From NCBI GenBank assembly GCA_044370735.1, contig JBILUY010000001.1, forward strand, positions 1 to 44,294: 44,294 nt of DNA, read 5' to 3'. Origin of the DNA: Crocinitomicaceae bacterium (GTDB taxonomy: Bacteria; Bacteroidota; Bacteroidia; Flavobacteriales_D; Crocinitomicaceae). This document shows, one piece after another, positions 26,654 to 44,294 of this stretch. Position 1 is the stretch's first letter, and every line of letters starts with the position of its first letter. Under the pieces are notes generated by a model. That model had not been told where the DNA came from and searched no databases. It worked only from the letters and a program-made list of their open reading frames with translations. The position numbers and the translations under genes are program-made.

Positions 26654-26734
26654 AGTTAAATTTAATTGTTTGATTGACTTATGGGTAAGTCTTTTTCTCT
26701 AATCTTCTTTTGTCTTTCTACTTTCCACTTTCTT

Positions 26735-27882: not shown

Positions 27883-27886
27883 AGTA

Positions 27887-28942: not shown

Positions 28943-28984
28943 CGTATCGATGATTCAAATTCGAAAATAGATAAGAATATTAAG

Positions 28985-29008
28985 TACATTCTAAAACACA
29001 AGAATGTA
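28985..29008. promoter_or_regulatory. perfect 8-bp inverted repeat (TACATTCT-N8-AGAATGTA), candidate operator
   Basis: Located in the 128-nt gap upstream of the Met-rich barrel gene, about 45-65 nt from its ATG at 28942. Confidence 0.3.
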
Positions 29009-29070
29009 ATAGATACATAGCTATTCAGTCAATTACTATTTGTAAAAGCTGAATAATATGTATAGGGAAA

Positions 29071-29472: not shown

Positions 29473-29488
29473 GAGACAAATGTAAAAC

Positions 29489-29526
29489 AAAAAACGAACC
29501 TAAAAAGTGATTTAGGTTCGTTTTTT
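29489..29526 (-). terminator. strong 16-bp stem-loop terminator
   Basis: AAAAAACGAACCTAAA (29489..29504), loop AAGTGA, TTTAGGTTCGTTTTTT (29511..29526). A/T runs on both sides allow action in either direction. Follows the stop of the 29556..30167 gene. Confidence 0.75.
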
Positions 29527-29555
29527 CAAGAAGTTTAAAATTTAGTGTTTAGAAA

Positions 29556-30167: not shown

Positions 30168-30228
30168 AACTTAACTTTTTGTTTCTTAAAATTATATTCT
30201 ATACACTTAATAAACAAGGATAGTTGCC

Positions 30229-30236
30229 TATTTTTG
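30229..30236 (+). promoter_or_regulatory. candidate -7 box (TATTTTTG)
   Basis: Matches TAnnTTTG 24 nt upstream of the ATG at 30261. Confidence 0.3.
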
Positions 30237-30260
30237 TTTTACATTTTCAATTTAAAATCA

Positions 30261-31130
30261 ATGAAAGTTAGCGGTTTCACCTTTATACGAAATGCCATCA
30301 AATACGATTACCCCATTGTAGAAGCTATACAATCCATTTTACCCCTATGTGATGAGGTTGTTGTAGCTGTAGGAAATTCGGAGGACGAAACACTTTCATT
30401 AATTCAAAATATTGATCCAAAGGTTCGGATTATTGAAACGATTTGGGATGATTCTGTAAGAGAGGGGGGCAGAACGTTGGCATTGGAAACGGATAAGGCT
30501 TTTGCTGCAATTTCTCCAGATGCTGAATGGGCTTTTTATATACAAGGTGATGAGGTACTTCATGAAAAATTTGTACCTGAAATCAAAGACGCCATGTTGA
30601 AATACAAAGATGATCTACGAGTGGAAGGTTTGTTATTTAATTATCTCCATTTTTATGGATCTTATGATTATGTTGGTACTTCAATTAGTTGGTATCCCGA
30701 TGAAATTCGTATCATCAGAAATCGAAAAGATATTTTTTCATACAGAGATGCTCAGGGATTTAGAAAACAATCAAATGAAAAGTTGAATGTAAAACGAATC
30801 AACGCTTGGATGTATCATTATGGTTGGGTAAAACCTCCTGAAAAAATGCAGTTGAAACAAGAATCGTTTCATAAAATGTGGCACGATGATGCTTGGTTGG
30901 AAGAAAATGTTAAAAAAGTAGCAGCATTTAATTACACAGAAAATATTGATTCACTTGCGGTATTTAAAGAAACACATCCAGCAGTCATGCAACATCGTAT
31001 TGATGCTAAAAACTGGAAATTTGATTATGACATTTCTTTTAATAAGGAAAAGACAAAAGATAAATTCAAACGATTTTTAAGAAAGTATCTTGGTATAGAT
31101 ATTAGGTATAAAAATTTTAAACAGATATAA
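30261..31130 (+). CDS. glycosyltransferase family 2-like protein
   Basis: About 289 aa from ATG 30261. The N-terminus MKVSGFTFIRNAIKYDYPIVEAIQSILPLCDEVVVAVGNSEDET and the YIQGDEVLHE acidic motif resemble a conserved Bacteroidota GT2-like family. Recognised from memory. Confidence 0.5.
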   Translation: MKVSGFTFIRNAIKYDYPIVEAIQSILPLCDEVVVAVGNSEDETLSLIQNIDPKVRIIETIWDDSVREGGRTLALETDKAFAAISPDAEWAFYIQGDEVLHEKFVPEIKDAMLKYKDDLRVEGLLFNYLHFYGSYDYVGTSISWYPDEIRIIRNRKDIFSYRDAQGFRKQSNEKLNVKRINAWMYHYGWVKPPEKMQLKQESFHKMWHDDAWLEENVKKVAAFNYTENIDSLAVFKETHPAVMQHRIDAKNWKFDYDISFNKEKTKDKFKRFLRKYLGIDIRYKNFKQI

Positions 31131-31131
31131 C

Positions 31132-31168
31132 AAAAAGAAGGGCTAATCATTGACTAGCCCTTCTTTTT
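31132..31168. terminator. bidirectional terminator between convergent genes
   Basis: AAAAAGAAGGGCTA (31132..31145), 9-nt loop, TAGCCCTTCTTTTT (31155..31168). Confidence 0.75.
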
Positions 31169-31173
31169 TATTT

Positions 31174-34100
31174 TTAATTTATTACAATCTGTTTTCTTTC
31201 GACACGATCACCTTCTAAGTGAACTTCTAAAATATAAACTCCTGCTCTTAAATTTTCTACATTGATTGTTGAAGAATTTTCTGTTCCTGTAAAACTTTCA
31301 GAATGAACTAAAACTCCATTTGAAGAAATTAATTTAATATCTTTTTTAACAGATGGATTTGCACCAACAATGTCAATATTGATTACATTATCCACAGGAT
31401 TTGGATAAACATTTAAATAGATTTCCTCTTTTACTTCGGCAGCATTTTCAGTTGAAATTTCGATAGTTTCTGTAGGGGTTATTTTTCTGTATATAGATGC
31501 ATTTCCTTTATTATCAACGATAAATTCATATCCTTGATATTTTTTACTATCACTTCCACAATATGCATAAATATCATAAATTCCAGGAGTTAATCCTGTT
31601 AGATTGATAGACTTACTTTCACCCATCTTATTGTAAAGAGAGATGAATGTTTGATTATTTACAGTAACAAAATTCCCATTTTTATCTTTCTTACGTATTC
31701 TATATTTATTATTCGTAGAACCATAAGAAACATTAAACTTAATTGATGAATCTACAACATCTATCGTAAGACGGATTCCAGTACAGTTTTCACGAACATC
31801 AGAGTAAAAATTATCTTTTACTTCTTGTTCTGAAATTGCCTTAGCAGAAAGTTTCAATTCGTCAAATAATAGTCTAATGATTTTATTTTTTCCATCATTA
31901 CCAACAATCAAATCAGTGTTATTATTAGATAAAACTGATGATTTAAATTTTGCTACTAATTGATCATTTACATAAACTTTATCAGAATCTTGATTATGAG
32001 TTAATACCAATTGATTCCATGTTCCAGCTTCAACTTTAAAACTAGTAGTATTCAAAACAGAGTTTTCACCAGCTCCAAATTGTACTTTTAGATTACCATT
32101 TTTATCCGCTAATATTTCAAACCTTTTTGAAGAAGTTGCGCTAGGAATGGACATGATAGTAGCATTATTATACTTTGGCATTTCTAATAGTTTATACCAA
32201 AATGAGATTGTATAAGCGGACAGTGTATCAATATCAACAAAGTTTTTGAAAGTTACATTATCCGTTGCATTGTAAATTCTATAAGCACCTGTTAAGTTGC
32301 CATAATTATCATCAACCTTAATTGCGCCAACTACTTGTGGTGCAGTAGCTCTCTTTAATGAATCATTATTGTTTTTATCGAACGAGTAGTATGATATTAC
32401 ATCTTTTAAAATCGATTTGCAATTTTCTTTGTAAATGCTGAATGAACTAGATTTAAAGTAGCTTACATCCTGAGAACAATATACATATAGTTCATATTCT
32501 CCTTCGGGAAGTTCATCAATAGTTACACGTTTTGTTTCTTTAGCTACGTTACCAATCGATACAAAAACAGGATTTGATATTACAGTAAATGTATTGTCTG
32601 GATTAATTCTTCTCAAACGATAGGTGAAATTAGGAGCTCCTCCAGAAATCGTAAAGGTAACACTACCATAAAGGTTGTCACAAGTGACCGGAGTTATATC
32701 ACTATTTTCGATAGTTAAACTCATATCTTTACATGTATAATTTTCAGATGAAGTATTTCCGTCACCACCTGAAGTTACAGTGTCACATAAAGATAAAATT
32801 GAAAAGTTATACACTTTTGATACTTTTGCATCTTGACCACAAAAAGCAAATAAGTCGTAATTTCCTTTCGCTAAGTTTGAAACAGTAATTGTTTTAGATT
32901 CACCTACGCCATTATTTAATGGTGCAAAAGCTGGACTAGTTAATATGGTAAATGTTCCATCATCGTTTTTCTTTCTTAAACGATATTTATTATTGTCAGA
33001 TCCATTTGCAATGGTAAATGTTATTTGACCATCATTTGTTGAAGTGCAAGTTGCTTTTTTAATGTCCTCAGATAAGACAGAAATTGAAATAGGTGTACAT
33101 GGGCCAGATAATACTGAATTTACTGTTACTCTTACTGTATCTTGTCCATAGCAACCATTTTTTAATCCTGACATGGTGTATGTAGTTGTTTTAGTAGGAT
33201 TTGCAGTAATAGAAGCTCCTGTAGAACTGCTTATAGTTGCAATCGGTGTCCAGCTATAACTATCGCCACCAGTACCGGTTAATGTTGTAGTTTCACCAGA
33301 ATTAATTGTATATTTTGATGCAGTTGCTGTTACTATAGGTAATTCTTTGATAGTTAGTGTGGTTTTATAATCATCAGATGAGCAGTTTCCATCATTACCA
33401 CTTACGATAAAACCATAACTTCCTATTGCTACGTTTTTAGGTAAATTGAATTTCCCAACTTGGTTATAAGAAACGTTTGTCAATGTTGGATACCCTTGTA
33501 TAGGATTATCTCCTAATGATACGTTAAAATATTTAGCAGCGACCTTACCAGTTAAAGTTAGTTCAGCTGCAGTATCGTTATAGCATGCTACTTTTAAAGA
33601 AGCTGTATAACTTGGTTTGTAGTAAAATTTAATGGTATTACTAGAATCTAATACTACATTAGTAAATCGTGCATCAGATACTGAAATAAGTTTTAATGTG
33701 TTAATTGTAGAATCTACTGTAATGGTATATACTTCTTTTGTAATATTCGTTATCGTTTTCTCTACTCCATTATTTGCGGTATATACAATTTTAAACGGTG
33801 CAACACCTTTCATGTAAATAAGTGCATTTTTTGTTTTTGGAGTAACACACTTTGTTGTTCCTTCAAAAAATGCTAATGGTTTTCTATCTACTATTAGTTG
33901 TGCTGATTTAGATGTAACATTTTCATATTTACCATATAATAGTACTCTAAAGTAATTCTTCTTGTAGTACAATCTGTTAGCAATGACCAATGTATCTTTG
34001 GTAACTTTGGTGAAATTACCCCCTTGTTTGATATCATTCCAAGTTAAGCCACCGTTGAAAGAATATTGCCATAAAAATGAAGTTGCAAATTGAGATGCCA

Positions 34101-35514
34101 CTGTAAATGTTGCTTCTCCATTTTCTAAATACACTTGTGAAACAGGTTGTTGGGTAATTTGTAGTTTGTTTTGTTTAGTATACACAGTTGTAGTAACCTT
34201 ATTTGTACATACATCATCATTTGTTGATAATGTAATTACAAAATAATAGGTTCCTGGAGTTGTTCCATCGTTTGGTATTGAAAATTTAACTTGATTATCT
34301 GTTATATTTTGATTCTCTAAGGTTGAAAAACCTGGAAAAATTCTCGTACCAGTTTGTACTTCAAATGATGTATAATTTGATCCATTTAAGGTAAATGTTA
34401 CATTCTTATCCTCATCCATTAAAGTATTGGTGTTACTTACAAGTGCATCTTTTTTATAGGCTAAAAATGAAGTTTGTCCTGTTAATAGATTGTTTGTGTA
34501 CTTATAATCAGAAACTTCAATAATATTAAAAGTTGTTTTAGCTCCTAACCCAGTAACTGGAAGGGAATAAGATGTAGAAGTAATATTTGAAACAACAATG
34601 TTTGAACCGTTATTTATTGCGTAAGTAAGTTTGAAAGGAGCCTTTCCTGTAAATTTGATTGGAATAGATTTTAAGTTAGTCGCATCACAATTTGAAATTG
34701 TAGTAAAAACAGCTGTTGGTAATTGTTCAATGGTAAGTTTAGCTGATGATGATGTAACTGAACCATAGATGTTTGAAACTATAGCTCTGAAATAATAACC
34801 GTTATAATTTACTCTGTTATTTACATCGAGAGTTGCACCATTTTGAGTAAAATCTACACCAGAAATATCTGACCAAGTTGTACCGTTTGCAGAAAGTTGC
34901 CATTTATATATTGTTGCATTCGAGGCAACTACAGAAAATGAAGTTGATCCATTTGCTAATACCGTAACCGCAGTTGGATGCGTAGTTATTTTAGGAAAAC
35001 CAGCCGTGATTGTCGGTATTGAAGCTGCTTGAAGATTAGCTAAATTAAAAGAATACAAATGAGTTATAACCTTGTTAAATGGATTTGTAAACTCGAAAGT
35101 TACAGTACCAACTGAGGCTAACTTCGTGCCATACGAACAATATACAACAGATGTATCCCCAGTATTTAAAGGAGCAGGAGGTCCAAAAATAGCTGAACTC
35201 AACGAGGTTTTCCCTGATAAATCTGTATACCAAACTTTCGTAATAACAGGAGCACTTGTTATATCCAAATCATGCCAAGAAAATGTAAACGTTCCGTTCT
35301 TAGTAGTTGGGTTTACTGTCAATTTCTGATACTGTGTATTTTCTACATTCGAAGCAACAGGATTATTTTGCGTGTAGTTAGGTCTAAAATCACCAGGAGC
35401 AATTGCCCAATTGGTGTTTCCATCCACTCGCTTATCAAGATTTATAGTTCCAGACTGTCCATATGTAAGAAAAGACAATGTAATTATAAGTATTGACAAG
35501 TATGATTTTACCAT
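31174..35514 (-). CDS. giant T9SS-secreted adhesin-like protein (Ig-like modules, LamG domain, T9SS sorting domain)
   Basis: 1446 aa with a signal peptide. Contains a duplicated ~275-aa module, three NNKYR[LI]RKK modules, and a LamG/concanavalin-like domain (about 31830..32410; AYTISFWYKLLE...FDELKLSAKAISEQEV). C-terminal YLNVYPNPVDNVINIDI...GVYILEVHL...KQIVIN. Confidence 0.8.
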   Translation of the reverse strand: MVKSYLSILIITLSFLTYGQSGTINLDKRVDGNTNWAIAPGDFRPNYTQNNPVASNVENTQYQKLTVNPTTKNGTFTFSWHDLDITSAPVITKVWYTDLSGKTSLSSAIFGPPAPLNTGDTSVVYCSYGTKLASVGTVTFEFTNPFNKVITHLYSFNLANLQAASIPTITAGFPKITTHPTAVTVLANGSTSFSVVASNATIYKWQLSANGTTWSDISGVDFTQNGATLDVNNRVNYNGYYFRAIVSNIYGSVTSSSAKLTIEQLPTAVFTTISNCDATNLKSIPIKFTGKAPFKLTYAINNGSNIVVSNITSTSYSLPVTGLGAKTTFNIIEVSDYKYTNNLLTGQTSFLAYKKDALVSNTNTLMDEDKNVTFTLNGSNYTSFEVQTGTRIFPGFSTLENQNITDNQVKFSIPNDGTTPGTYYFVITLSTNDDVCTNKVTTTVYTKQNKLQITQQPVSQVYLENGEATFTVASQFATSFLWQYSFNGGLTWNDIKQGGNFTKVTKDTLVIANRLYYKKNYFRVLLYGKYENVTSKSAQLIVDRKPLAFFEGTTKCVTPKTKNALIYMKGVAPFKIVYTANNGVEKTITNITKEVYTITVDSTINTLKLISVSDARFTNVVLDSSNTIKFYYKPSYTASLKVACYNDTAAELTLTGKVAAKYFNVSLGDNPIQGYPTLTNVSYNQVGKFNLPKNVAIGSYGFIVSGNDGNCSSDDYKTTLTIKELPIVTATASKYTINSGETTTLTGTGGDSYSWTPIATISSSTGASITANPTKTTTYTMSGLKNGCYGQDTVRVTVNSVLSGPCTPISISVLSEDIKKATCTSTNDGQITFTIANGSDNNKYRLRKKNDDGTFTILTSPAFAPLNNGVGESKTITVSNLAKGNYDLFAFCGQDAKVSKVYNFSILSLCDTVTSGGDGNTSSENYTCKDMSLTIENSDITPVTCDNLYGSVTFTISGGAPNFTYRLRRINPDNTFTVISNPVFVSIGNVAKETKRVTIDELPEGEYELYVYCSQDVSYFKSSSFSIYKENCKSILKDVISYYSFDKNNNDSLKRATAPQVVGAIKVDDNYGNLTGAYRIYNATDNVTFKNFVDIDTLSAYTISFWYKLLEMPKYNNATIMSIPSATSSKRFEILADKNGNLKVQFGAGENSVLNTTSFKVEAGTWNQLVLTHNQDSDKVYVNDQLVAKFKSSVLSNNNTDLIVGNDGKNKIIRLLFDELKLSAKAISEQEVKDNFYSDVRENCTGIRLTIDVVDSSIKFNVSYGSTNNKYRIRKKDKNGNFVTVNNQTFISLYNKMGESKSINLTGLTPGIYDIYAYCGSDSKKYQGYEFIVDNKGNASIYRKITPTETIEISTENAAEVKEEIYLNVYPNPVDNVINIDIVGANPSVKKDIKLISSNGVLVHSESFTGTENSSTINVENLRAGVYILEVHLEGDRVERKQIVIN
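33345..34995 (-). repeat. in-frame tandem duplication of a ~275-aa multi-domain module (approximate borders)
   Basis: Module A runs ITTHPTAVTVLANGSTSF...AKLTIEQLPTAVFTT...KFTGKAPFKLTYAINNG.... Module B runs ITQQPVSQVYLENGEATF...AQLIVDRKPLAFFEG...YMKGVAPFKIVYTANNG.... Divergent at the DNA level. Confidence 0.6.
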
Positions 35515-35592
35515 AAAAAATAAGTTTTAATCCCTAAAAATAAAAAAATTATTAATTATTTTGTTAAATAGTTGATTTAAAAACCAAAAATA

Positions 35593-38019
35593 TTATTCAA
35601 TAATTAATTTTTCTGAAATTGTTTGACCGTTTTCAGTTAGTTTTATTAGATACATTCCTTTATTTAAATCAGACAATTCCAACTCTGAATTAGTAAGCGC
35701 TCCTTTTTTAACTACCTTTCCGTTCATGTCAATAATACGTATTTCTGAAGTAGATGTTACATTATTAAAATTTAATTTTCGCCCATGTTTTACAGGGTTA
35801 GGGTAGATTGAAATCGTGTTATTTTTGATGTTTTCTACAGAAGAAATATTATCTACTGTTACTATCGTATTTCCTAATTCAGACCAACATTCTCCATTAC
35901 TTACTTTCAAATAATAGGTTCCAGCATTGGATGTCGTTGCATTATGTATCATAGGATTTTGTGATGTTTCTCCAAAAGATTGAGGACCTGTCCATTCGTA
36001 ACCAACAGCCGTTGTGTTTGCATGAAATTGAATCATTCCTCCAGTTGTATATGGTCCGTCATTAGTTGGTGACGGTCTATCTGGTCTTTGTTTTACTGTA
36101 ACTAACACTGAATCAGCATCACTTTTGCAATTTCCTAAAGTAGCAAATACTTTGTAGTACCCTGAATTTACAGTCGAAATATTTGAAATTGTAGTGTCTT
36201 TAGAATGACTTACAAATCCATTTGGTCCGCTCCAAACATATCCTGTGGCATTTGGAACTAATGAACTTTCAAGTACTATTGTTTGTCCAGCACAATTCGT
36301 TGTATTGTATAACTCACCGGTTCTATTAAAAGCCGTTGGTTTTGTGAGAGCATCACAACAATTTTTAATTACAATTGGTAATGAAACTAGTGTGTCACTT
36401 GGATTACTTGAAATTACGCGTAGTCGATATTGATTTCCAAAAGCCAAGTCAGATGGAATCGTAGTTGATACCGAACCAGAAAAACTACCAGAACCTGTTA
36501 AAGATAGTGTATGTAAGGTAGTGGGGGTTGCGAATGATCCTGTTTGGTCACTTAATTGAAATGTAAATTGATTTCCAACATTGTATAATCCTTTTATTAC
36601 ATATTGTATGGTTGCAGTTGAACCCAAACATAGTGTATCATTATTGAATGTTGCACTTAATAAGTTGTTTCTCAATTTAATTGTCCAAAAGTCTGTACTA
36701 CCTTTTGTAGCTTGAGATTTATTTCCTGAAATACTTGAGTTAGATTGACCTGTAACTAAAATTCCATTATCGTTAGCCAAGGTCATTCCAAAACAATAAT
36801 CACCTTGATCACCTCCGTAAGTTCCGTCCCACACTTTTGTTCCATTGGCTTTTAATTTCACTACCCAGTAATCAAACCAACTCATTTTATCTTCGGTTTT
36901 ATCACCAGTTCTTCCTGATCCGGAAGAAGCAGCAAAGATGAAAGAGCCATCAGCTTGTTCAACAACATCTTCTACACTTTCTTCACCGTCACCACCTAGG
37001 GTTTTGTCCCAAATTACACCTCCAAGTGTATCAACGTGAACCAACCAACTATCAAAAGAACCACGACAAGTGTCTGTTTTTTCAAAACTTAATGGTGAAC
37101 GTGAGCCACCTGCTAATAAATATCCTTTACTCGTTTTAATCGCTGCTTTTACATCCTCTAAATCACTACCTCCGTATGATTTATCCCAAATTTTAGCTCC
37201 ATTTTCACGGATACGAACAGCCCAATAATCTGCAGCACCAAGATTATAATTTCCACGTAAATACTCCGATTTTTCACCACCAGCATTGGAATAGGTAGTT
37301 CCAACCAACAGATATCCTCCATTGTGAGCAGGTACGATTTCTTTTAATTGGTCGTGACTATCACTTCCATAAGTTTTATCCCAAATTTTGGTACCAGTAG
37401 ATGATATTCTGACAACCCAAAAATCTGTTCTTAATCCATTTGGATCGCGTGTATCTTCTGTTTTATCTCCTGTATTTCTAGATTCTGAATTCCCACCTAA
37501 TAAAAAATCTCCGTTTGGAGTTTCTAACAATGCATTCAAATCTTCATCGCGTGTACCTCCAAAAGTTGCGTCCCATTGTTTGTTCCCATCTTTGTCGATT
37601 TTGATTACCCAATAGTCTTTTCCTCCGTTACCAGTTTGTGTTTTATCACCAGAAATATCTGATTCAGAGTAACCACCTAAAAGAAATCCTCCATCGCTTG
37701 TTTCGATAGCAGTTCTGAACATATCTGTATAACGTCCACCATAGGTTTTTGCCCAAAGTTTATTTCCTAAGGAGTCCATTTTAACAACCCAAAAATCGAT
37801 AAATCCATTTACACCTTTTCGGTCGTCTGTTTTATCAGCACCAATTCCAGAGTAAGAAATTCCACCTATGAATACTTGATGGTTTGAAGTATGTATAACT
37901 TTATATGGAGTTTCAGAATCAGTACCGCCATAGGTTTTATCCCATAATTTTGTTGGTCTTTGTTGGCTGAATCCAACAGAACTTCCTATAAGGATAAGTC
38001 CTAATATTAGTTTTTTCAT
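35593..38019 (-). CDS. T9SS-secreted protein with seven WDKTYGG-type repeats (probable beta-propeller) and Ig-like C-terminal modules
   Basis: 808 aa with a signal peptide. Repeats start KLWDKTYGG, KLWAKTYGG, KQWDATFGG, KIWDKTYGS, KIWDKSYGG, VIWDKTLGG and KVWDGTYGG, each followed by an sGDKT-like and DYWVVK-like segment. C-terminal ISIYPNPVKHG...GMYLIKLTE...KLIIE. Confidence 0.8.
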   Translation of the reverse strand: MKKLILGLILIGSSVGFSQQRPTKLWDKTYGGTDSETPYKVIHTSNHQVFIGGISYSGIGADKTDDRKGVNGFIDFWVVKMDSLGNKLWAKTYGGRYTDMFRTAIETSDGGFLLGGYSESDISGDKTQTGNGGKDYWVIKIDKDGNKQWDATFGGTRDEDLNALLETPNGDFLLGGNSESRNTGDKTEDTRDPNGLRTDFWVVRISSTGTKIWDKTYGSDSHDQLKEIVPAHNGGYLLVGTTYSNAGGEKSEYLRGNYNLGAADYWAVRIRENGAKIWDKSYGGSDLEDVKAAIKTSKGYLLAGGSRSPLSFEKTDTCRGSFDSWLVHVDTLGGVIWDKTLGGDGEESVEDVVEQADGSFIFAASSGSGRTGDKTEDKMSWFDYWVVKLKANGTKVWDGTYGGDQGDYCFGMTLANDNGILVTGQSNSSISGNKSQATKGSTDFWTIKLRNNLLSATFNNDTLCLGSTATIQYVIKGLYNVGNQFTFQLSDQTGSFATPTTLHTLSLTGSGSFSGSVSTTIPSDLAFGNQYRLRVISSNPSDTLVSLPIVIKNCCDALTKPTAFNRTGELYNTTNCAGQTIVLESSLVPNATGYVWSGPNGFVSHSKDTTISNISTVNSGYYKVFATLGNCKSDADSVLVTVKQRPDRPSPTNDGPYTTGGMIQFHANTTAVGYEWTGPQSFGETSQNPMIHNATTSNAGTYYLKVSNGECWSELGNTIVTVDNISSVENIKNNTISIYPNPVKHGRKLNFNNVTSTSEIRIIDMNGKVVKKGALTNSELELSDLNKGMYLIKLTENGQTISEKLIIE
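36664..37950 (-). repeat. seven tandem ~60-aa protein repeats (coding)
   Basis: Periodic W-D-K-T-Y-G-G ... G-D-K-T ... D-[FY]-W-V-V-[KR] pattern read directly from the translation of residues about 24-452. Confidence 0.7.
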
Positions 38020-38088: not shown

Positions 38089-38595
38089 TTAATTAAAATA
38101 TTTATTCATCAGCATGTAATCAATACTCCCTGATTGTGAATGACATCCTATACAAGATGTACCTTTATTTGCAGTAGGAAAAGCCTCAGTTCCATCTTTG
38201 TTGATATAACCCCAAACCCATCCTTTCGTGTCAGCATCTTTGTTTTTGGTATCCTTATACAGGATAGCATATCTTTCAATCGTATAATCTTCATCCATTA
38301 ATTCTTTAACAATTAAAGAACCTTCCGGAAATTTAGCTGATGAATTTATTTTGCCTAATGAGTCCAACATTTCACTTGCTATTGCGTTATATCTAGTTCT
38401 CATATACGGTTGTGAATGTCCGGTCCCTGTACTTTTTTTTAGGTATTCACTTGATTTTTTATACCACGTAAATCCTTCGCTACTTTTAGACATATCAAAC
38501 AAACTTGAGGTAGTTGGTGAAGATGCTTCTTTCTTTTTACAAGCGAAAAGAGAAATTACAATGAAAAATAGTTTAAATAGCTGTTTTGTTTTCAT
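38089..38595 (-). CDS. cytochrome P460-like lipoprotein
   Basis: About 168 aa from ATG 38595 (the track ORF starts at TTG 38670). Lipobox LFACKK and a single C-terminal CXXCH in GWVWGYINKDGTEAFPTANKGTSCIGCHSQSGSIDYML. Size and motif position fit the P460 family. Not searched. Confidence 0.5.
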   Translation of the reverse strand: MKTKQLFKLFFIVISLFACKKKEASSPTTSSLFDMSKSSEGFTWYKKSSEYLKKSTGTGHSQPYMRTRYNAIASEMLDSLGKINSSAKFPEGSLIVKELMDEDYTIERYAILYKDTKNKDADTKGWVWGYINKDGTEAFPTANKGTSCIGCHSQSGSIDYMLMNKYFN

Positions 38596-39985: not shown

Positions 39986-40876
39986 ATGTCGCAAAAAACA
40001 CAAGCTTGGGTTTATCTTTCTCTTTTAAGTCTGATCTGGGGAAGCTCTTTTATTTTGATGAAACGCGGAATGATTTCCTTAGATGGTACACCTTTATTTT
40101 CGTCGTTACAAGTTGGAGTGTTGCGTATCGTAATTGCAGGTACCGTGCTTTTACCCTTGACTATCCTAAATCGTAAGAAGATTATAGACAAAAAGGATTG
40201 GTTGTATTTTGCCATTGTTGGGTATTTTGGAAATTTTTTCCCTTCACTTTTGTTTACTTATGCAGAAGAAGGACTTTCATCAGGATTGACAGCTATCATA
40301 GATAGTTTAACTCCTGTTTTTACCGTGTTAATCGGAGTTTACTTTTTCAAACAACGTATAAAATTGGCTCAAACGATTGGTTTATCAGTTGCGTTTGTTG
40401 GTGTGTATTTATTGATTTTCTTTGGTAAAAATGTTTCGTTTACAGGAAATTTACAGCATATCATTGCAGTGATATTGGCTACTTTGTGTTATGGAATTTC
40501 TGTAAATACGATTAAATACAAATTGGCTACCTATTCAGCCATGGAAATAACTTCGCTTTCATTTGGAACATCCATAATTCCTGCAACCTTGATTATGTTG
40601 TTTTCAGGTACAATTTCATTTATACAAACCGAACCAAAAGCAATGGAAGGACTGTTTTTTATTGCTATTTTGAGTGTGATTGGAACAACAGTAGCGCTAT
40701 ATTATTTCAATAAGTTAATTGCGATTTCTTCTACTGTTTTTTCAAGTAGTGTTACCTATAGTATTCCAATTGTTGCAGTTTTAATTGGAACACAATTTGG
40801 GGAGATGATTAATTCCCTGCAAGTGTTAGCAATGATTGTAATCCTTGCAGGGATTTATTTTGTGAATAGGAATTAA
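39986..40876 (+). CDS. EamA/DMT-family transporter
   Basis: 296 aa. Ten hydrophobic segments in two EamA halves, with an N-terminus YLSLLSLIWGSSFILMK typical of the family. Confidence 0.8.
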   Translation: MSQKTQAWVYLSLLSLIWGSSFILMKRGMISLDGTPLFSSLQVGVLRIVIAGTVLLPLTILNRKKIIDKKDWLYFAIVGYFGNFFPSLLFTYAEEGLSSGLTAIIDSLTPVFTVLIGVYFFKQRIKLAQTIGLSVAFVGVYLLIFFGKNVSFTGNLQHIIAVILATLCYGISVNTIKYKLATYSAMEITSLSFGTSIIPATLIMLFSGTISFIQTEPKAMEGLFFIAILSVIGTTVALYYFNKLIAISSTVFSSSVTYSIPIVAVLIGTQFGEMINSLQVLAMIVILAGIYFVNRN

Positions 40877-42945
40877 TGTGCTTCTACTTGCGAAATGTCC
40901 GTTGCAAATTTTATCACTTTAATAACGTTTCCTTCCGCGTTTTTAATTGGATTATAAATAGCGTTTAGCAGAATTTTCTTACCTGATTTACTAACACGTT
41001 CAAACACACCATGATTTTCCTTACCATGAGATAAGTTGTACCAAAATTCTTTGTATTCAACCAGTGTTTTCAGGTGCTCAGGAACAAACATAAAATGATG
41101 TTTTCCTTGTATTTCTGAAAGCGAATATTCAGTCGTGGTTAGGAAGTTTTCATTTGCAGTAATGATAGTACCATCAGGTTCAAATTCAATTACTGCCATT
41201 GTTGCATTAATACCTTCAAGAATTCCTTTTGTATATGAAGCATCTTCAGCAATTTTTTTGTTTTGAATTTCCATCTCCTCTTGCGTTGCTTTCATTTCCT
41301 CCATGTTTTGACGAAGTTCTTCCTCTTGCTGTTGCATTGCATGAACCATTTTCGTCATTTCACGTTCTTTTTTATTCATTTCAGATTGAGTAGCATTTAG
41401 TTCCTCAATATTCTGACGCATCTCTTCTTCTTGTGCACGCATTTCTTCTTCTTGTGCACGCATTTCTTCCGTTTGTTGTTGCGAGTGATATAGTAATTCT
41501 TTTGTTCTTTCATTGGTTTGAACACTCGTTATTGTACTCGCAATCGTTTCAGAAAGTTTATTTACAAATTCCATTTTATAATCTTCCAATGGATGGAAAG
41601 ATGCAATTTCGATTACCCCACAGATTTTTTCATTCACCATTAATGGAGTGATAAAAATACATCTTGGAGTAGCCTCACCGATACCTGAAGTGATATTTAC
41701 ATAGTCACCTGGTATCTCTGTAAAAAATAAAGGTTCTTTATCAAACCAACATTGTCCAACCAAGCCTTGTTTGTATCTGATAATATTTTTTTCTTCTAAA
41801 TAACGTTGTTTTCCATAAGCATATACTGCTTTTATTTCCATGAATGGCTCGTTATCATCTGTTTCGTTTAATACATAAAGATACCCTTGATTAGCACCTA
41901 AATAACGTAATAGGTTAGAAATGATATTATTGTAAAAACGTTCAATATCATCAGTATCCCTTATAATATCGGTGAATTTAGCTAACCCTTCATTTACCCA
42001 ATTACGTTTTTTATCTTCTTCAGCATTTGCCTTAATTTTTGTAGTCATTTGGTGTAATGACTCAAAGATTGGACCTTGATTTTTAAATATTTCTATTTCA
42101 GCTTCATAATTTCCATTTCCGACTTCGCTTACATAATTACGGACATTTGATAAATTATGAACGACGGTATTTAAAGAGCGAAGCATATTGGCTGTTTCGT
42201 CTTTACCTTCCACTTCAATTTCTTCTGTAATAGCTCCTTCAGAAATTTGATCTAATACATCTTCTGTGATTAAAATTGGTTTTTCAATTAATTTAGAAAC
42301 ATATAAACTCAATGTTAATGCAATGATAGCAACGATAATTCCTAAGATGAATAACGTTAATTGTATTTTATGTGTATAGTCTGTAAGTAAATCTTGTTGA
42401 TGTGTATATTCAACTTCGATTACTTCACTTAACTTCTCCATTTGAACAGCTAGTTGATCAAATGTGTTTTTATATTCTCGTATTTCTTTGTGTCCTATTG
42501 AAGAATGTAAATCATATTTAGTGTATAAGCCTTTATCAATAAAATACCTAGATGCTTTAATATAATTCTTAAGTGGAGTTTGAACTGCATCTACTTGTTT
42601 TTTTATTTTTATATCTATCTTGAAATGAGTTAATTCATGTAAAGATGTTTTGAAAATATGAACATGTTCTGCAAAATCTCGTTTTACTTCTTTTATTCCA
42701 TCAACATCTCCATCATCTGTCAAGAAAGCATTATACACATCTGCTCTAAGTGCATCATGCATCATGTCTGCTGTTAATTGACGTGATGCAGCTTTTCCTA
42801 CTTGTACAATATCATATTTAATGTCATCTACTTTATCTAATGATTGATGTGCAATAATCGACATCAAAGCGGTAAAAAATATATTGATTGAAATGATTAA
42901 TAATATCTTTTTACGTACACGTAGATTTTTAATCCAATTTAACAT
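40873..42945 (-). CDS. membrane sensor: 4-helix-bundle-like periplasmic domain, HAMP, GAF, signalling coiled coil, C-terminal PAS; no recognisable output domain
   Basis: About 690 aa from ATG 42945 (MLNWIKNL). TM1 (ILLIISINIFFTALMSII), helical periplasmic region, TM2 (LTLFILGIIVAIIALTLSLYV), and HAMP-like segment(s). GAF is YLGANQGYLYVL...CGVIEIASF. The coiled coil has EEMRAQEEEMRAQEEEMRQNIEELNATQSEM and EELRQNMEEMKATQEEM. PAS is IEFEPDGTIITANENFLTTTEYSLSEIQGKHHFMF...NAIYNPIKNAEGNVIKVIKFATDIS. Confidence 0.7.
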   Translation of the reverse strand: MLNWIKNLRVRKKILLIISINIFFTALMSIIAHQSLDKVDDIKYDIVQVGKAASRQLTADMMHDALRADVYNAFLTDDGDVDGIKEVKRDFAEHVHIFKTSLHELTHFKIDIKIKKQVDAVQTPLKNYIKASRYFIDKGLYTKYDLHSSIGHKEIREYKNTFDQLAVQMEKLSEVIEVEYTHQQDLLTDYTHKIQLTLFILGIIVAIIALTLSLYVSKLIEKPILITEDVLDQISEGAITEEIEVEGKDETANMLRSLNTVVHNLSNVRNYVSEVGNGNYEAEIEIFKNQGPIFESLHQMTTKIKANAEEDKKRNWVNEGLAKFTDIIRDTDDIERFYNNIISNLLRYLGANQGYLYVLNETDDNEPFMEIKAVYAYGKQRYLEEKNIIRYKQGLVGQCWFDKEPLFFTEIPGDYVNITSGIGEATPRCIFITPLMVNEKICGVIEIASFHPLEDYKMEFVNKLSETIASTITSVQTNERTKELLYHSQQQTEEMRAQEEEMRAQEEEMRQNIEELNATQSEMNKKEREMTKMVHAMQQQEEELRQNMEEMKATQEEMEIQNKKIAEDASYTKGILEGINATMAVIEFEPDGTIITANENFLTTTEYSLSEIQGKHHFMFVPEHLKTLVEYKEFWYNLSHGKENHGVFERVSKSGKKILLNAIYNPIKNAEGNVIKVIKFATDISQVEAH
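41423..41469 (-). repeat. perfect 21-nt (one heptad) tandem repeat inside the signalling coiled coil
   Basis: Plus strand 41427..41447 is identical to 41448..41468 (CTTCTTGTGCACGCATTTCTT). Perfect period-21 identity extends over 41423..41469, with a degenerate third copy upstream. Encodes EEMRAQE-EEMRAQE. Confidence 0.9.
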
Positions 42946-43041
42946 TATGTAAGTAAATTTAAGTTTTGTAAATACAAATAAACAATTAATTATTTTAATT
43001 GTTCTCATAAATTAAAATAATACATAATTTTTACACGTAAA

Positions 43042-43069
43042 AAAACGGATGAGTATTCCCATCCGTTTT
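43042..43069 (-). terminator. rho-independent terminator after the H-NOX gene
   Basis: AAAACGGATG (43042..43051), 8-nt loop, CATCCGTTTT (43060..43069). On the minus strand it is followed by a T-run. Lies 18 nt after the stop at 43087. Confidence 0.7.
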
Positions 43070-43086
43070 AAGTATTGTTTTGTAAA

Positions 43087-43605
43087 TTAACAGAAAGTAA
43101 TTTCTACTTGTGTTTCTGATAATTTTTTGATGTCTAGCATTTGTTTGAAATAGATACCTACCCCTTTTACTAGTGAGATGTATAAATCAATTAATCCTCG
43201 TTCAGATTTGTATGTAACAATGATAGATTCTCCTTTGTCTTCAAAATCAAATCTAGGAGGCTTAGCATTTGGAATTTCTTTCGTTACTGTTTCATGAATT
43301 TCATCCATTGCTAACAAAAATTCTTTAGCCGTTTTGTAGTTTTCAATGTATCCAAAATAGATTTTAGGAACATAAGCATTTACCCAATATTCCCCAAACG
43401 CATCACATACTTGTTGGAAAGAAATTCCAAGTATAGCTGGCATTTTTCCTAATAAATCCATTGTTAATTGTTCATCAACATCTTCATTTAACATGAACAC
43501 GTGATCTTCATCCAATCCAACAGATGCTAAACATTCATACCATTTTTCTTCACCGAATTTTTCGATTACTAATTTTTCAATACTCTTGTGAATTGTACCT
43601 TTCAT
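43087..43605 (-). CDS. stand-alone H-NOX (haem nitric oxide/oxygen binding, HNOB) protein
   Basis: 172 aa. N-terminus MKGTIHKSIEKLVIEKFGEEKW is typical of H-NOX. Candidate proximal His104 in LAMDEIHETV, and a Y-x-S-x-R haem-propionate motif (YKSER, residues 132-136, nt 43198..43212). Confidence 0.8.
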   Translation of the reverse strand: MKGTIHKSIEKLVIEKFGEEKWYECLASVGLDEDHVFMLNEDVDEQLTMDLLGKMPAILGISFQQVCDAFGEYWVNAYVPKIYFGYIENYKTAKEFLLAMDEIHETVTKEIPNAKPPRFDFEDKGESIIVTYKSERGLIDLYISLVKGVGIYFKQMLDIKKLSETQVEITFC

Positions 43606-43623
43606 TTTTCTGAATTTATGTAA

Positions 43624-44294
43624 TTAATTAGTTGAAGCTAGTTTTTGCTCCAATTCTACTATTATTTTTTTAGCTTTAAATAATTCTGCTTTTTTACCCT
43701 CTAATTCTTCATCTAGAGTTTCCATTTTCTTTTTGAAGTTTTGCGCTTTTTGTTTGTTTTTTTCTTGTTCTTGTTGAAGTGTAACCTGCATTTCCTCCAT
43801 CTTTTTGATGTTTTCGTTCATTTCAACTTCTTGTTTTTGCATTTTGTTCAACATGAAAGTCATTTCTCTTTCTTTACGGGTCATTTCTGCTTGTGTAGCC
43901 TGCATTTCTTCCATGTTTTGAAGCATTTCTTCTTCTTGTGCACGCATTTCCTCTGTTACTTGTTGGGATTGTTCTAATAAATATTTAGTACGTTCATTAG
44001 TTTTTACATTAGAAACTGTACTCGCAATCGTTTCTGATAATTTAGTAACAAACTCCATTTGGTGGGTTTCTAATGGATCGAATGATGCTATTTCAATCAC
44101 GCCATGAACTTGTTCGTTTACAATTAGGGGAACAATAAACACACAAGTTGGTGTTGCTTCTCCCATTCCTGAGGTAATGTTTACAAAATCCTGAGGAATT
44201 TCCGTAAAATATAATGGTTCTTTATCAAACCATGCTTGCCCTACTAATCCTTGTTTATAGTGAATAATTTTTTTCTCTTCTAAATAGCGTTGTT
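43624..44294 (-). CDS. C-terminal part of a paralogous GAF-coiled-coil sensor (gene runs off the right window edge)
   Basis: The track ORF starts at the internal Met at 44166, but the frame stays open to the edge. Translation of 44167..44292 gives QRYLEEKKIIHYKQGLVGQAWFDKEPLYFTEIPQDFVNITSG, colinear with QRYLEEKNIIRYKQGLVGQCWFDKEPLFFTEIPGDYVNITSG of the 40873..42945 protein. It ends in a coiled coil with no PAS. Confidence 0.8.
   Translation of the reverse strand, partial: QRYLEEKKIIHYKQGLVGQAWFDKEPLYFTEIPQDFVNITSGMGEATPTCVFIVPLIVNEQVHGVIEIASFDPLETHQMEFVTKLSETIASTVSNVKTNERTKYLLEQSQQVTEEMRAQEEEMLQNMEEMQATQAEMTRKEREMTFMLNKMQKQEVEMNENIKKMEEMQVTLQQEQEKNKQKAQNFKKKMETLDEELEGKKAELFKAKKIIVELEQKLASTN

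What the first reader, a model, noticed from the sequence alone, without database searches (positions are those of the whole stretch)
40873..44294. Stand-alone H-NOX flanked by two paralogous 4HB-HAMP-GAF-coiled-coil sensors that lack any output domain
Seen in sequence:
- The H-NOX ORF (His104, YKSER motif) starts 18 nt after a gene that ends in GAF plus a long coiled coil.
- A terminator follows H-NOX.
- Next comes a full-length paralogue with the same GAF and coiled coil (EEMRAQEEEM.QN.EE..ATQ.EM), which carries a C-terminal PAS domain (KHHFMF type) where the first copy has the separate H-NOX gene.
- Neither protein shows a kinase, cyclase, phosphodiesterase or MCP signalling domain.

Established knowledge:
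- Bacterial H-NOX proteins normally partner with histidine kinases or diguanylate cyclases, or are fused to MCPs.

Inference:
- This looks like an unreported H-NOX partner class.
- H-NOX and PAS appear to be interchangeable sensory caps on a coiled-coil scaffold whose output is unknown.
Basis: partly seen in the sequence, partly recalled or inferred. Interest (0 to 1): 0.65.

Follow-up and report, generated by a model that had tools for sequence, protein, structure and literature searches.

The report
H-NOX paired with output-less receptor
A freshwater Bacteroidota genome pairs a haem nitric-oxide sensor (H-NOX) with a membrane receptor that has sensor domains and a long coiled coil but no enzyme output; this gene pair recurs in 14 loci from several Bacteroidota lineages and no paper in the held library describes it.

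Summary
On the minus strand lie the 3' end of a GAF + coiled-coil gene, an 18-nt spacer, a 172-aa H-NOX (Pfam HNOB 2.5e-37; His104, PP116-117 and Y132xS134xR136 conserved; model TM 0.9 to solved H-NOX), a hairpin terminator, and a paralogue with 4HB-HAMP-GAF-coiled coil-PAS.

The truncated upstream gene was recovered as a 595-aa protein with a PilJ/NarX-type periplasmic bundle, HAMP, GAF and a roughly 145-residue coiled coil. I found no kinase, cyclase, phosphodiesterase or MCP signalling domain. This held for Pfam, NCBIfam, 10 orthologues, the 120 best family homologues, hhalign against an MCP, profile searches of the PDB, and AF2 + Foldseek.

The "GAF-coiled-coil gene then H-NOX" pair is conserved in all 14 loci whose H-NOX is at least 45% identical, across several Bacteroidota lineages. 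A C-terminal tail motif (FKxKMExLDxELExK) occurs only in these partners.

"H-NOX and PAS are interchangeable caps" is only partly right, because one partner carries PAS, tail and H-NOX together.

Related H-NOXs elsewhere sit behind MCPs, are fused to MCP C-termini, or lie in or near che gene clusters. One family paralogue sits inside a Bacteroidota che cluster. A chemosensory output in trans is therefore my leading guess, but it is unproven. I rate this a new variant of H-NOX signalling.

The parts
43624..44292 (-). 3' part (222 codons + stop) of the H-NOX partner gene. Full product is P0235, 595 aa: PilJ/NarX-type periplasmic four-helix bundle, TM, HAMP, GAF, ~145-residue coiled coil.
   Evidence: (GAF_2 5.9e-10); AF2 model
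43987..43998 (-). NERT, an S-helix-like signature directly after the GAF domain
   Evidence: S-helix motif as quoted in PMC8199190
43882..43953 (-). Family-wide heptad coiled-coil motif EEMRAQEEEMLQNMEEMQATQAEM
   Evidence: Present in 118 of 120 family homologues, often once before each PAS domain; invariant columns
43681..43764 (-). Partner-specific C-terminal tail motif EKNKQKAQNFKKKMETLDEELEGKKAEL; proposed H-NOX docking site (inferred)
   Evidence: Found in the partner of all 14 H-NOX loci, seen at the C-termini (L014 in a shifted frame). Among the 120 family homologues it occurs in only 11, all with PilJ and/or HAMP plus GAF_2 and no PAS; 9 are 595-617 aa and 2 shorter. Gap-free over the motif itself in the 10-sequence alignment, which has gaps only at the C-terminal ends, with 22 invariant columns.
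43606..43623 (-). 18-nt spacer between the partner stop codon and the H-NOX start; no terminator inside it
43087..43605 (-). Stand-alone H-NOX gene (172 aa). His104 codon at 43294-43296; Y132xS134xR136 at 43198-43212.
43042..43069 (-). Intrinsic-terminator-like hairpin (10 bp) followed by a T-run on the minus strand, ending the partner/H-NOX unit
40873..43008 (-). Downstream paralogue (ORF 711 aa; likely start Met22 at 42945, giving 690 aa). Two TM segments around a ~160-aa periplasmic bundle; HAMP 42148-42288; GAF 41530-41952; coiled-coil motifs 41377-41469 and 41272-41325; PAS 40882-41223.
   Evidence: It is not a conserved part of the module.

Best explanation
The core of the locus is a two-gene nitric-oxide sensing module, probably transcribed as one unit. 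The first gene encodes a probably dimeric inner-membrane receptor. It has a periplasmic PilJ/NarX-type four-helix bundle with an N-box-like motif, which suggests nitrate or nitrite sensing. This is followed by TM, HAMP, a linker helix, GAF, an S-helix-like NERT signature, and a coiled coil of about 145 residues. The second gene encodes a haem H-NOX with an apolar distal pocket, the NO-selective type.

Shown here:
- the domain make-up of both proteins;
- the absence of any recognisable enzymatic or MCP output domain;
- the strict conservation of the gene pair;
- a tail motif found only in H-NOX partners.

Inferred:
- H-NOX docks non-covalently on the exposed charged face of the C-terminal tail (FKxKMExLDxELExK).
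- NO-driven rupture of the Fe-His104 bond shifts the H-NOX subdomains and so changes the register or packing of the receptor's coiled coil.
- The receptor integrates this with its periplasmic and GAF inputs.
- Because it has no catalytic domain, it passes the signal on in trans, through the family-wide coiled-coil motif (and the PAS modules of its paralogues).
- The most likely recipient is a Che-type chemosensory pathway. The next most likely is a separately encoded kinase core.
For: Pair conservation: all 14 loci with an H-NOX at least 45% identical have the GAF-coiled-coil gene directly upstream on the same strand. The gap is 12-91 nt, or about 38 nt in L014 once its frameshift is read through. 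N-termini and flanking genes vary.

Tail motif: it is found only in these partners.

Haem and NO type:
- His104, PP116-117 and YxSxR are invariant.
- The position of the O2-binding Tyr140 of Tt H-NOX is Leu, Phe or Ile.
- The review PMC8738867 states that this distal Tyr is required for O2 binding.
- The predicted fold matches solved H-NOX with TM about 0.9.

No output domain:
- Pfam and NCBIfam on the window proteins.
- Pfam on 10 orthologues and paralogues.
- The 120 best homologues carry only HAMP, GAF, PAS, 4HB and PilJ, apart from PF11483 in two (P0176, P0182), PF08670 in three (P0207, P0209, P0220) and PF17202 in one (P0289), which I did not look up.
- hhalign against an MCP gives probability 0.05%.
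- Profile searches of the PDB hit only generic or designed coiled coils.
- The AF2 model shows one 100-residue helix after the GAF domain, and Foldseek matches only GAF domains.

Periplasmic domain:
- Pfam PilJ matches.
- The motif (I/V)D(L/V)AGRNRMLSQ departs from the published nitrate N-box [IVL][ND]xAGxQRML[ST]Q only by Q to N, and keeps the nitrate-binding Arg (PMC6381276).

Chemosensory lead:
- H-NOXs 41-50% identical to this one are fused to the C-terminus of MCPs (P0307, P0314).
- One follows an MCP gene by 45 nt in Margulisiibacteriota.
- One closes a che operon in Patescibacteria.
- One lies 4-9 kb from a che cluster in Sericytochromatia.
- One lies 340 nt upstream of an MCP gene on the same strand.
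- P0175, 61% identical to the window's paralogue, lies between cheR and parA/STAS/cheY/cheA/cheW in a Bacteroidota che cluster. The soluble MCP of that cluster has PAS domains 38-41% identical to the window paralogue's PAS.
Against: - No direct evidence of binding, and no co-fold could be run.
- The tail region has low confidence in the monomer model (pLDDT about 50).
- No fusion of GAF-coiled-coil with H-NOX was seen among the best 150 representatives.
- The che link rests on one family paralogue. Two other family contexts (L040, L042) and all 14 H-NOX loci have no che genes within about 10 kb.
- Another relative of this H-NOX sits behind a response-regulator/guanylate-cyclase gene, so the clade is promiscuous in its partners.
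- The window's own N-box is degenerate (ANVIGRNRFLSQ). Single-sequence search of the N-terminal domain against the PDB hit only HAMP.
- No RNA data exist to prove co-transcription.
Confidence: 0.55

Rival explanations
1. The adjacency reflects co-regulation only. H-NOX acts on a classical histidine kinase or diguanylate cyclase encoded elsewhere in the genome, and the GAF-coiled-coil protein is an independent sensor.
For: Table 1 of the review lists two S. degradans H-NOX proteins (Sde_3804 and Sde_3557) against a single kinase, Sde_3803; from my own recollection, Sde_3557 is not encoded next to that kinase. Only about 10 kb on each side of the H-NOX gene was visible. Relatives of this H-NOX have varied partners.
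Against: The pair is kept in 14 of 14 loci while everything else around it changes. Spacers are short, 12-91 nt. A tail motif is exclusive to H-NOX-adjacent partners. tblastn with CheY, CheA, CheW, CheR, CheD and a 300-aa histidine-kinase-like protein found nothing in these loci; one truncated HATPase_c gene lies about 9 kb upstream on the opposite strand in L002.
Confidence: 0.15
2. The receptor is a membrane tether or sink. It holds H-NOX at the membrane and releases or captures it according to periplasmic or GAF signals, so that H-NOX itself is the diffusible output, or acts as a haem/NO buffer.
For: The receptor has no output domain. H-NOX is a separate polypeptide in every Bacteroidota locus seen.
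Against: The cytoplasmic partner of L004 (347 aa, no TM segment) would tether nothing to the membrane. The family-wide coiled-coil motif is more conserved than a passive tether would need. No downstream target of free H-NOX is evident.
Confidence: 0.1
3. The GAF-coiled-coil proteins are highly divergent chemoreceptors. Their coiled coil would be a cryptic MCP signalling or methylation region that binds CheA/CheW directly.
For: The N-terminal architecture is MCP-like (4HB or PilJ, TM, HAMP). EE/QE pairs are spaced by seven residues. JGI names several members 'methyl-accepting chemotaxis protein'. P0175 sits inside a che cluster next to cheR.
Against: There is no Pfam MCPsignal match at E<=1. 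hhalign of the partner's coiled coil against a true MCP gives probability 0.05%. Profile searches of the PDB find no MCP. AF2 gives a single long helix rather than a hairpin. The che cluster of L041 has its own canonical MCP.
Confidence: 0.05
4. The proteins are decayed sensor kinases (NarX-like proteins that lost DHp and CA) with no remaining function.
For: The domain order sensor-TM-HAMP-helix-GAF is that of NarX/NarQ up to the point where the kinase core would begin (PMC8199190).
Against: At least 670 homologues were found. Several intact paralogues occur per genome. Columns in the GAF domain and coiled coil are invariant across proteins only 30-40% identical overall. Only one of the 14 partners is frameshifted.
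Confidence: 0.03

Closest known systems
HnoX/HnoK and HnoX/DGC-PDE operons of Proteobacteria (Shewanella, Vibrio, Legionella; review PMC8738867)
   Same: A stand-alone, NO-type H-NOX encoded next to its signalling partner. The proximal His, YxSxR motif and apolar distal pocket are the same.
   Different: Here the partner has no HisKA, HATPase, GGDEF or EAL domain. It lies upstream of H-NOX, not downstream as in 8 of the distant H-NOX loci, where the downstream gene matches histidine-kinase motifs. This H-NOX is only 19-25% identical to the Shewanella and Kordia H-NOX structures.
H-NOX associated with chemoreceptors: the textbook H-NOX-MCP fusions of obligate anaerobes (PMC8738867; Tt H-NOX is the solved example), plus the MCP-then-H-NOX pairs and C-terminal fusions found here (P0307, P0314, L043)
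   Same: H-NOX sits at, or is encoded just after, the C-terminal end of a long coiled-coil membrane receptor with a TM-HAMP front end. These are the nearest sequence relatives outside Bacteroidota, at 41-50% identity.
   Different: The Bacteroidota partner has GAF and a plain coiled coil instead of the MCP signalling hairpin. The distal Tyr that makes Tt H-NOX an O2 sensor is absent.
NarX/NarQ nitrate-sensor kinases and the nitrate chemoreceptor McpN (PilJ-type sensor domain; PMC8199190, PMC6381276)
   Same: A periplasmic PilJ/NarX-type four-helix bundle with an N-box-like motif that keeps the nitrate-binding Arg, followed by TM, HAMP, a helix and GAF in the same order as NarX.
   Different: There is no DHp/CA kinase core and no MCP signalling domain. 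The N-box Gln is Asn in all 15 members that have the motif. The GAF domain is followed by a coiled coil and an H-NOX docking tail.
Soluble guanylate cyclase (H-NOX, PAS, coiled coil, cyclase)
   Same: It combines H-NOX, PAS-like and coiled-coil signalling elements. The predicted H-NOX fold superposes on sGC beta1 with TM 0.86-0.88.
   Different: The elements are on separate polypeptides and in a different order, a GAF domain is added, and there is no cyclase.

Membership tests
H-NOX (Pfam PF07700, HNOB) | Full-length match to the family profile and the H-NOX fold | tested here: met
   HNOB 2.5e-37 covering 1-162 of 163 positions. AF2 model pLDDT 91.6, Foldseek TM 0.86-0.91 to Tt, Ns, Cs and sGC H-NOX.
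H-NOX (Pfam PF07700, HNOB) | Proximal haem-ligating His and the YxSxR propionate-binding motif | tested here: met
   His104, Y132, S134 and R136 align to Ns H-NOX. They are invariant in 119-120 of 120 homologues.
H-NOX (Pfam PF07700, HNOB) | Actually binds haem and NO | not testable with these tools
   Needs expression and UV-visible spectra.
O2-binding H-NOX subclass (Tt type) | Distal-pocket Tyr (Tyr140 of Tt H-NOX) | tested here: not met
   The equivalent position is Leu141; it is Leu, Phe or Ile in the clade, and Tyr in 1 of 120 and 5 of 150. The requirement is stated in PMC8738867.
HnoX/HnoK-type or HnoX/DGC-type operon | Adjacent gene encodes a histidine kinase or a GGDEF/EAL enzyme | tested here: not met
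   Both neighbours, and the full-length upstream gene, have only PilJ/4HB, HAMP, GAF and PAS domains.
Methyl-accepting chemotaxis proteins | MCP signalling (MA) domain with the conserved hairpin tip | tested here: not met
   No MCPsignal match at E<=1. hhalign probability 0.05% against the MCP P0314. No MCP among the PDB profile hits. The model shows a single helix, not a hairpin.
NarX/NarQ nitrate-sensing histidine kinases | NarX/PilJ-type periplasmic sensor domain | tested here: met
   Pfam PilJ on P0235 (faint, precomputed), on orthologues at 1e-9 to 3e-7, and on P0232 at 8e-11.
NarX/NarQ nitrate-sensing histidine kinases | Nitrate-binding N-box [IVL][ND]xAGxQRML[ST]Q | tested here: inconclusive
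   None of the 120 members matches the strict pattern. Fifteen match it except for Q to N. The window's own partner reads ANVIGRNRFLSQ and keeps the key Arg, R51.
NarX/NarQ nitrate-sensing histidine kinases | DHp (HisKA_3) and CA (HATPase_c) kinase core | tested here: not met
Bacteroidota HAMP-GAF-coiled-coil(-PAS)n family (unnamed; defined here) | GAF followed by NERT and the motif AQEEEMRQNMEE(M/L)xATQ | tested here: met
   Both window proteins carry it. It is present in 118 of 120 homologues, with invariant columns.

The most novel reading that the evidence does not exclude
The HAMP-GAF-coiled-coil(-PAS)n proteins may be a Bacteroidota-wide class of receptors that signal without any catalytic or MCP domain. 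They would act purely through coiled-coil or PAS-mediated hetero-oligomerisation with other signalling proteins, such as a soluble PAS-MCP of a Che-like pathway in gliding, non-flagellated bacteria. The H-NOX pair would then be a dual nitrogen-oxide sensor, reading periplasmic nitrate or nitrite through the N-box bundle and cytoplasmic NO through H-NOX docked on a dedicated tail. It would be the first H-NOX partner that is itself only a signal integrator.
Probability: 0.25. Interest if true: 0.8.

Novelty: new variant of a known kind. Interest (0 to 1): 0.62.

Why it matters
Bacterial H-NOX signalling is currently described with three partner types: histidine kinases, c-di-GMP enzymes and fused chemoreceptors. 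A fourth partner, conserved across several Bacteroidota lineages and lacking any enzymatic output, would mean that NO sensing in this abundant environmental phylum runs through an unknown relay.

It also draws attention to a large family (at least 670 homologues, several per genome) of apparently output-less transmembrane sensors, whose mode of signalling is an open question.

The partner-specific tail motif gives a concrete, mutable site for testing how an H-NOX talks to a coiled coil. No H-NOX/partner complex structure was available as of the 2022 review (PMC8738867).

The N-box-like periplasmic domain, the nearby cytochrome P460, and the redox operons behind the pair in Cyclobacteriaceae- and Cytophagales-labelled MAGs suggest a role in sensing nitrogen-oxide chemistry in lakes.

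Tried and rejected
(1) Recovering the DNA beyond the window edge. The genome and metagenome scans found only relatives, at most 86% identical. I obtained the full upstream protein (P0235) instead. The cut 746-aa gene further upstream remains unseen. By synteny with L002 it is probably another multi-PAS paralogue.

(2) Searching with the 222-aa fragment returned only short fragments, not the full-length gene.

(3) The idea that the EE-heptad motif is a cryptic MCP methylation helix or MA domain is rejected. The PDB profile hits are designed or generic coiled coils, and hhalign gives 0.05%.

(4) A cryptic HisKA is rejected. The conserved positions of the coiled-coil alignments include no His, and there is no Pfam hit.

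(5) A hidden domain in the partner is rejected. Foldseek on the AF2 model finds only GAF domains.

(6) Single-sequence search of the N-terminal domain against the PDB gave only HAMP and did not find NarX, NarQ or McpN.

(7) I tried to co-fold H-NOX with the tail through the natural in-frame read-through. The tool also returns no interface measures, so I dropped this.

(8) The C-terminus of the MCP upstream of the Margulisiibacteriota H-NOX has no tail motif in common with the Bacteroidota partners.

(9) A general che linkage of the family is not supported. Only 1 of 3 non-H-NOX family contexts has che genes.

(10) No RNA runs hold the locus; only lake-water metagenome DNA runs do.

(11) The literature searches listed no title that pairs H-NOX with a GAF-coiled-coil protein or describes this family; I screened titles and abstract starts only.

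Full report
ANATOMY. All genes of the finding are on the minus strand. In the direction of transcription the window shows five features.
- The last 222 codons of a gene cut by the window edge (44292..43624). Pfam finds the C-terminal two-thirds of a GAF_2 domain (5.9e-10) followed by about 130 residues of coiled coil.
- An 18-nt spacer.
- A 172-aa ORF (43605..43087) that matches Pfam HNOB over its whole length (2.5e-37).
- A 10-bp hairpin followed by a T-run, 17 nt after the stop (43069..43042).
- A 711-aa ORF (43008..40873) with two TM segments around a ~160-residue periplasmic region, a sub-threshold HAMP match, GAF_2, about 100 residues of coiled coil and a C-terminal PAS domain. Homologues start at the position of Met22, so the real protein is probably 690 aa.

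The two GAF-coiled-coil proteins are 65.6% identical over 192 aa.

THE H-NOX.
- The closest solved relative by sequence is Nostoc Alr2278 H-NOX (8e-16).
- His104 aligns with the proximal His, and Y132-x-S134-x-R136 with the haem-propionate motif.
- Across 120 word-index homologues and 150 representatives of 50%-identity clusters, His104, P116-P117, Y132, S134 and R136 are essentially invariant.
- The position of the O2-binding Tyr140 of Tt H-NOX is Leu141 here, and Leu, Phe or Ile in the clade. This points to an NO-selective, O2-excluding pocket. That is an inference from the rule summarised in PMC8738867.
- An AF2 model (pLDDT 91.6) superposes on Tt, Ns and Cs H-NOX and on sGC beta1 with TM 0.86-0.91.

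THE UPSTREAM GENE BEYOND THE WINDOW. The identical H-NOX is also on a 38.7-kb JGI contig. Its gene table reads: 746 aa (cut), 129 aa, 670 aa (PilJ-HAMP-GAF-PAS), 595 aa (PilJ-HAMP-GAF), H-NOX, 711 aa, then the EamA, ThrE, cytochrome P460 and T9SS-cargo genes of the window. The 595-aa protein (P0235) and the 670-aa protein (P0232) were recovered as sequences. The C-terminus of P0235 is identical to the window fragment. So there are three paralogues in a row, and probably four, and none has a kinase or cyclase.

IS THERE A CRYPTIC OUTPUT DOMAIN? I tested this in several independent ways.
- Pfam at E<=1 and NCBIfam at E<=0.1 on the window proteins.
- Pfam on ten orthologues and paralogues, including a 1381-aa member with six PAS domains.
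- The precomputed Pfam content of the 120 best homologues of the 711-aa protein. These hold HAMP, GAF, PAS, 4HB_MCP_1 and PilJ, plus PF11483 (2 members), PF08670 (3 members) and PF17202 (1 member), which I did not look up. None has HisKA, HATPase_c, GGDEF, EAL, HD-GYP or MCPsignal.
- A profile of the conserved coiled-coil segment, and one of the whole partner tail, against all PDB sequences. Only designed or generic coiled coils were hit.
- hhalign of the tail profile against a genuine MCP gave probability 0.05%.
- An AF2 model of P0235 (pLDDT 81.7) shows a periplasmic helical bundle, TM, HAMP, a linker helix, GAF (329-443), one uninterrupted helix (449-548) and a low-confidence helical tail. 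Foldseek matches only GAF domains.

I conclude that the proteins have no recognisable enzymatic or MCP output.

THE PAIR IS A CONSERVED MODULE. I used the H-NOX to fetch loci from one-genome-per-species contigs, from metagenomes and by exact protein look-up. In all, 14 loci (counting the window) carry an H-NOX 45-89% identical to this one. In all 14 the gene immediately upstream on the same strand is a GAF + coiled-coil homologue. The annotated spacers are 12-91 nt; in L014 the frameshift-corrected reading ends about 38 nt before the H-NOX start. The MAGs are labelled Flavobacteriia, Luteibaculaceae, Cyclobacteriaceae, Cytophagales and Draconibacterium.

The flanking genes differ, and so does the N-terminus of the partner:
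- a PilJ bundle with HAMP in seven loci;
- only a short TM region in L007, L021 and L039;
- no membrane part at all in L004 (347 aa);
- a CHASE3-like region (sub-threshold Pfam match) in L014, and a long N-terminal domain with no Pfam match plus an inserted PAS in L008.

What is constant is the GAF domain, the NERT signature, the motif AQEEEMRQNMEE(M/L)xATQ, about 65 further coiled-coil residues, and a C-terminal tail with the invariant pattern EK..K....(F/Y)K.KME.LD...E.K. The ten-sequence alignment has gaps only at the ragged C-terminal ends, beyond the motif.

Among the 120 family homologues this tail occurs in only 11. All 11 carry PilJ and/or HAMP plus GAF_2 and no PAS; nine are 595-617 aa and two are shorter. 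In L014 the partner is frameshifted, but the tail is readable in the other frame.

The hydrophobic residues of the tail (F, M, L, L, L) follow an a/d heptad spacing. The invariant charged residues would therefore be solvent-exposed, which makes this the obvious candidate for the H-NOX docking surface. That is an inference.

The downstream 711-aa paralogue is present only in the window and its closest relatives (L001, L002), where it lacks PAS. It is not part of the conserved module.

PAS VERSUS H-NOX. In the family as a whole the coiled-coil motif recurs before each PAS domain, up to four times per protein. "Motif + PAS" is therefore a repeat unit, and PAS is optional. The Draconibacterium partner has GAF, motif, PAS, motif, a long coiled coil and the tail, and is followed by H-NOX. 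H-NOX thus goes with the tail rather than with the absence of PAS. "Interchangeable caps" is too simple.

WHAT THE PERIPLASMIC DOMAIN MAY SENSE. Pfam assigns the N-terminal bundle of the partner and of P0232 to PilJ. This is the family of the NarX/NarQ and McpN nitrate-binding domains (PMC8199190, PMC6381276). Fifteen family members carry (I/V)D(L/V)AGRNRMLSQ or a close variant. This differs from the published N-box [IVL][ND]xAGxQRML[ST]Q only by Asn for Gln, and it keeps the Arg that hydrogen-bonds nitrate in McpN. The window's own partner is more degenerate (ANVIGRNRFLSQ, with the Arg at R51).

The order sensor-TM-HAMP-helix-GAF matches that of NarX up to the point where NarX has its kinase core. 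A receptor that combines periplasmic nitrate or nitrite with cytoplasmic NO is a reasonable but untested reading. Two kinds of context fit it loosely:
- a cytochrome P460 gene three genes downstream in the window;
- a reductase/multihaem-cytochrome/Tll0287-like operon directly behind the pair in three loci (L007, L021, L039; Pfam assignments from L039 only, the other two matched by gene sizes).

WHERE DOES THE SIGNAL GO? This is not shown. There are three kinds of lead.

(a) Relatives of this H-NOX outside Bacteroidota (41-50% identity) are repeatedly tied to chemoreceptors.
- Two representatives are TM-HAMP-MCP proteins with the H-NOX fused to the C-terminus (P0307, P0314).
- In a Margulisiibacteriota MAG an MCP gene ends 45 nt before the H-NOX gene.
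- In Patescibacteria H-NOX is the last gene of a cheW-cheB-cheA-cheC/X-cheD-cheY operon.
- In Sericytochromatia a che cluster lies 4-9 kb upstream.
- One locus has an MCP gene 340 nt downstream.
- The clade is promiscuous, however. An Omnitrophota relative follows a receiver/guanylate-cyclase gene next to a hybrid-cluster protein.
In each of the MCP cases the H-NOX sits at the C-terminal end of a long coiled-coil receptor, which is the same topology as in the Bacteroidota pair.

(b) P0175, 61% identical over 96% of the window's paralogue, lies inside a che cluster on a 3.15-Mb Bacteroidota contig: cheR, P0175, parA-like, STAS-like, cheY, cheA, cheW, a soluble PAS-PAS-PAS-HAMP-MCP, cheR, an HK-like gene, cheD, cheB. 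The PAS domains of that MCP are 38-41% identical to the PAS of the window paralogue.

(c) Against a general link: two other family members (Fulvivirga maritima and a 934-kb contig) and all 14 H-NOX loci have no che genes within about 10 kb.

I therefore rank "relay in trans into a Che-type pathway" first. I rank "relay to a separately encoded kinase core" second; a 256-aa HisKA_3-HATPase protein with a GerE-type regulator lies 9 kb from one family member. Both carry low absolute confidence.

COMPARISON WITH WHAT IS KNOWN. The 2022 review lists HKs and DGC/PDEs as the neighbours of NO-type H-NOX genes, and MCP fusions in obligate anaerobes. In my own sample, the more distant (30-35% identical) H-NOXs of Bacteroidota and Proteobacteria show the classical arrangement: a downstream gene that matches histidine-kinase motifs (G2 box in all eight, H-box in five) in 8 loci. 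The GAF-coiled-coil partner meets none of the defining features of these partner classes. Full-text searches for H-NOX with Bacteroidetes or with GAF domain listed no title that describes it. I did not open the hits apart from the review. The family members are annotated only as "PAS domain S-box protein", "GAF domain-containing protein" or, misleadingly, "methyl-accepting chemotaxis protein" and "GAF sensor hybrid histidine kinase, putative".

VERDICT.
- The claim of a new H-NOX partner class is supported.
- The "interchangeable cap" idea is only partly supported.
- The output remains unknown, with a chemosensory relay as the best lead.

I class it as a new variant of a known kind (H-NOX two-gene sensing modules) and give it an interest of 0.62. 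The most novel reading still open is a Bacteroidota-wide class of receptors that signal only by coiled-coil or PAS contacts. I give that reading a probability of about 0.25.

Noticed in passing
window 38089-38595 (-): A cytochrome P460 gene (Pfam 4.7e-9) lies three genes downstream of the sensor array. P460 enzymes act on hydroxylamine and NO, so it may belong to the same nitrogen-oxide theme, or it may be coincidence.
   Followed up: partly
window 15726-16274 (+), 16279-16647 (+), 16703-19810 (-): DUF6272 + SiaC phosphoprotein, next to a Reg_prop/Y_Y_Y-SpoIIE (PP2C) protein of 1036 aa. This looks like a Sia-type partner-switch module. A SiaC + DUF6272 pair also lies about 4 kb from the Omnitrophota H-NOX (L045/L046, 12116-13049).
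   Followed up: partly
window 42945-43008 (-): The first 21 codons of the 711-aa ORF are probably not translated. Homologues (P0170, 690 aa; P0175) begin at the position of Met22 (MLNWIKNL / MKSWIKNL).
   Followed up: yes
L041 1340-22430: A complete che cluster (two cheR, cheY, cheA, cheW, soluble PAS-MCP, cheD, cheB, a parA-like gene and a STAS-like gene) on a 3.15-Mb Bacteroidota contig. It is preceded by B12-binding, ferredoxin-dependent bilin reductase and haem oxygenase genes and a HisKA_3 kinase with two GerE regulators. The 300-aa HK-like protein has Asn where the H-box His should be (FLSNIRNEINNPI).
   Followed up: partly
L039 6617-9715; L007 8440-11061; L021 10644-13274: In three loci (two from MAGs labelled Cyclobacteriaceae) the partner/H-NOX pair is followed on the same strand by three further genes. 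In L039 these are a FAD/NAD/2Fe-2S reductase, a multihaem cytochrome c and a Tll0287-like protein. The L007 and L021 genes match them in size only and were not scanned. Together they may form one redox operon.
   Followed up: partly
P0307 (605 aa), P0314 (660 aa): These are chemoreceptors with the H-NOX domain fused to the C-terminus (TM-HAMP-MCP-H-NOX). From my own recollection, not checked here, the H-NOX of the textbook Tt H-NOX-MCP fusion is N-terminal, which would make this the reverse order.
   Followed up: partly
L014 9500-10000: The H-NOX partner in this Cytophagales MAG is frameshifted after the coiled-coil motif. The tail motif reads on in another frame. This is either an assembly error or a recent pseudogene.
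   Followed up: yes
L012, L013, L026, L027 (gene directly after H-NOX): In several freshwater metagenome contigs and MAGs (two labelled Bacteroidota), a more distant class of H-NOX (181 aa, about 31% identical) is followed by a 356-aa protein that matched none of my kinase, GGDEF or MCP motif patterns. It may be another unexamined partner type.
   Followed up: no
L002 888-2875 and L041 1340-3305: A 231-233-aa protein with no Pfam match, followed by a 422-427-aa B12-binding protein, lies upstream of a family member in both loci: directly upstream in L002, and about 6.7 kb (six genes) upstream in L041.
   Followed up: no
window 24281-38019 (-): A run of large proteins with T9SS C-terminal sorting domains (791, 1446 and 808 aa). 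They look like typical Bacteroidota secreted cargo. The window's DNA is held by lake-water metagenome runs.
   Followed up: partly
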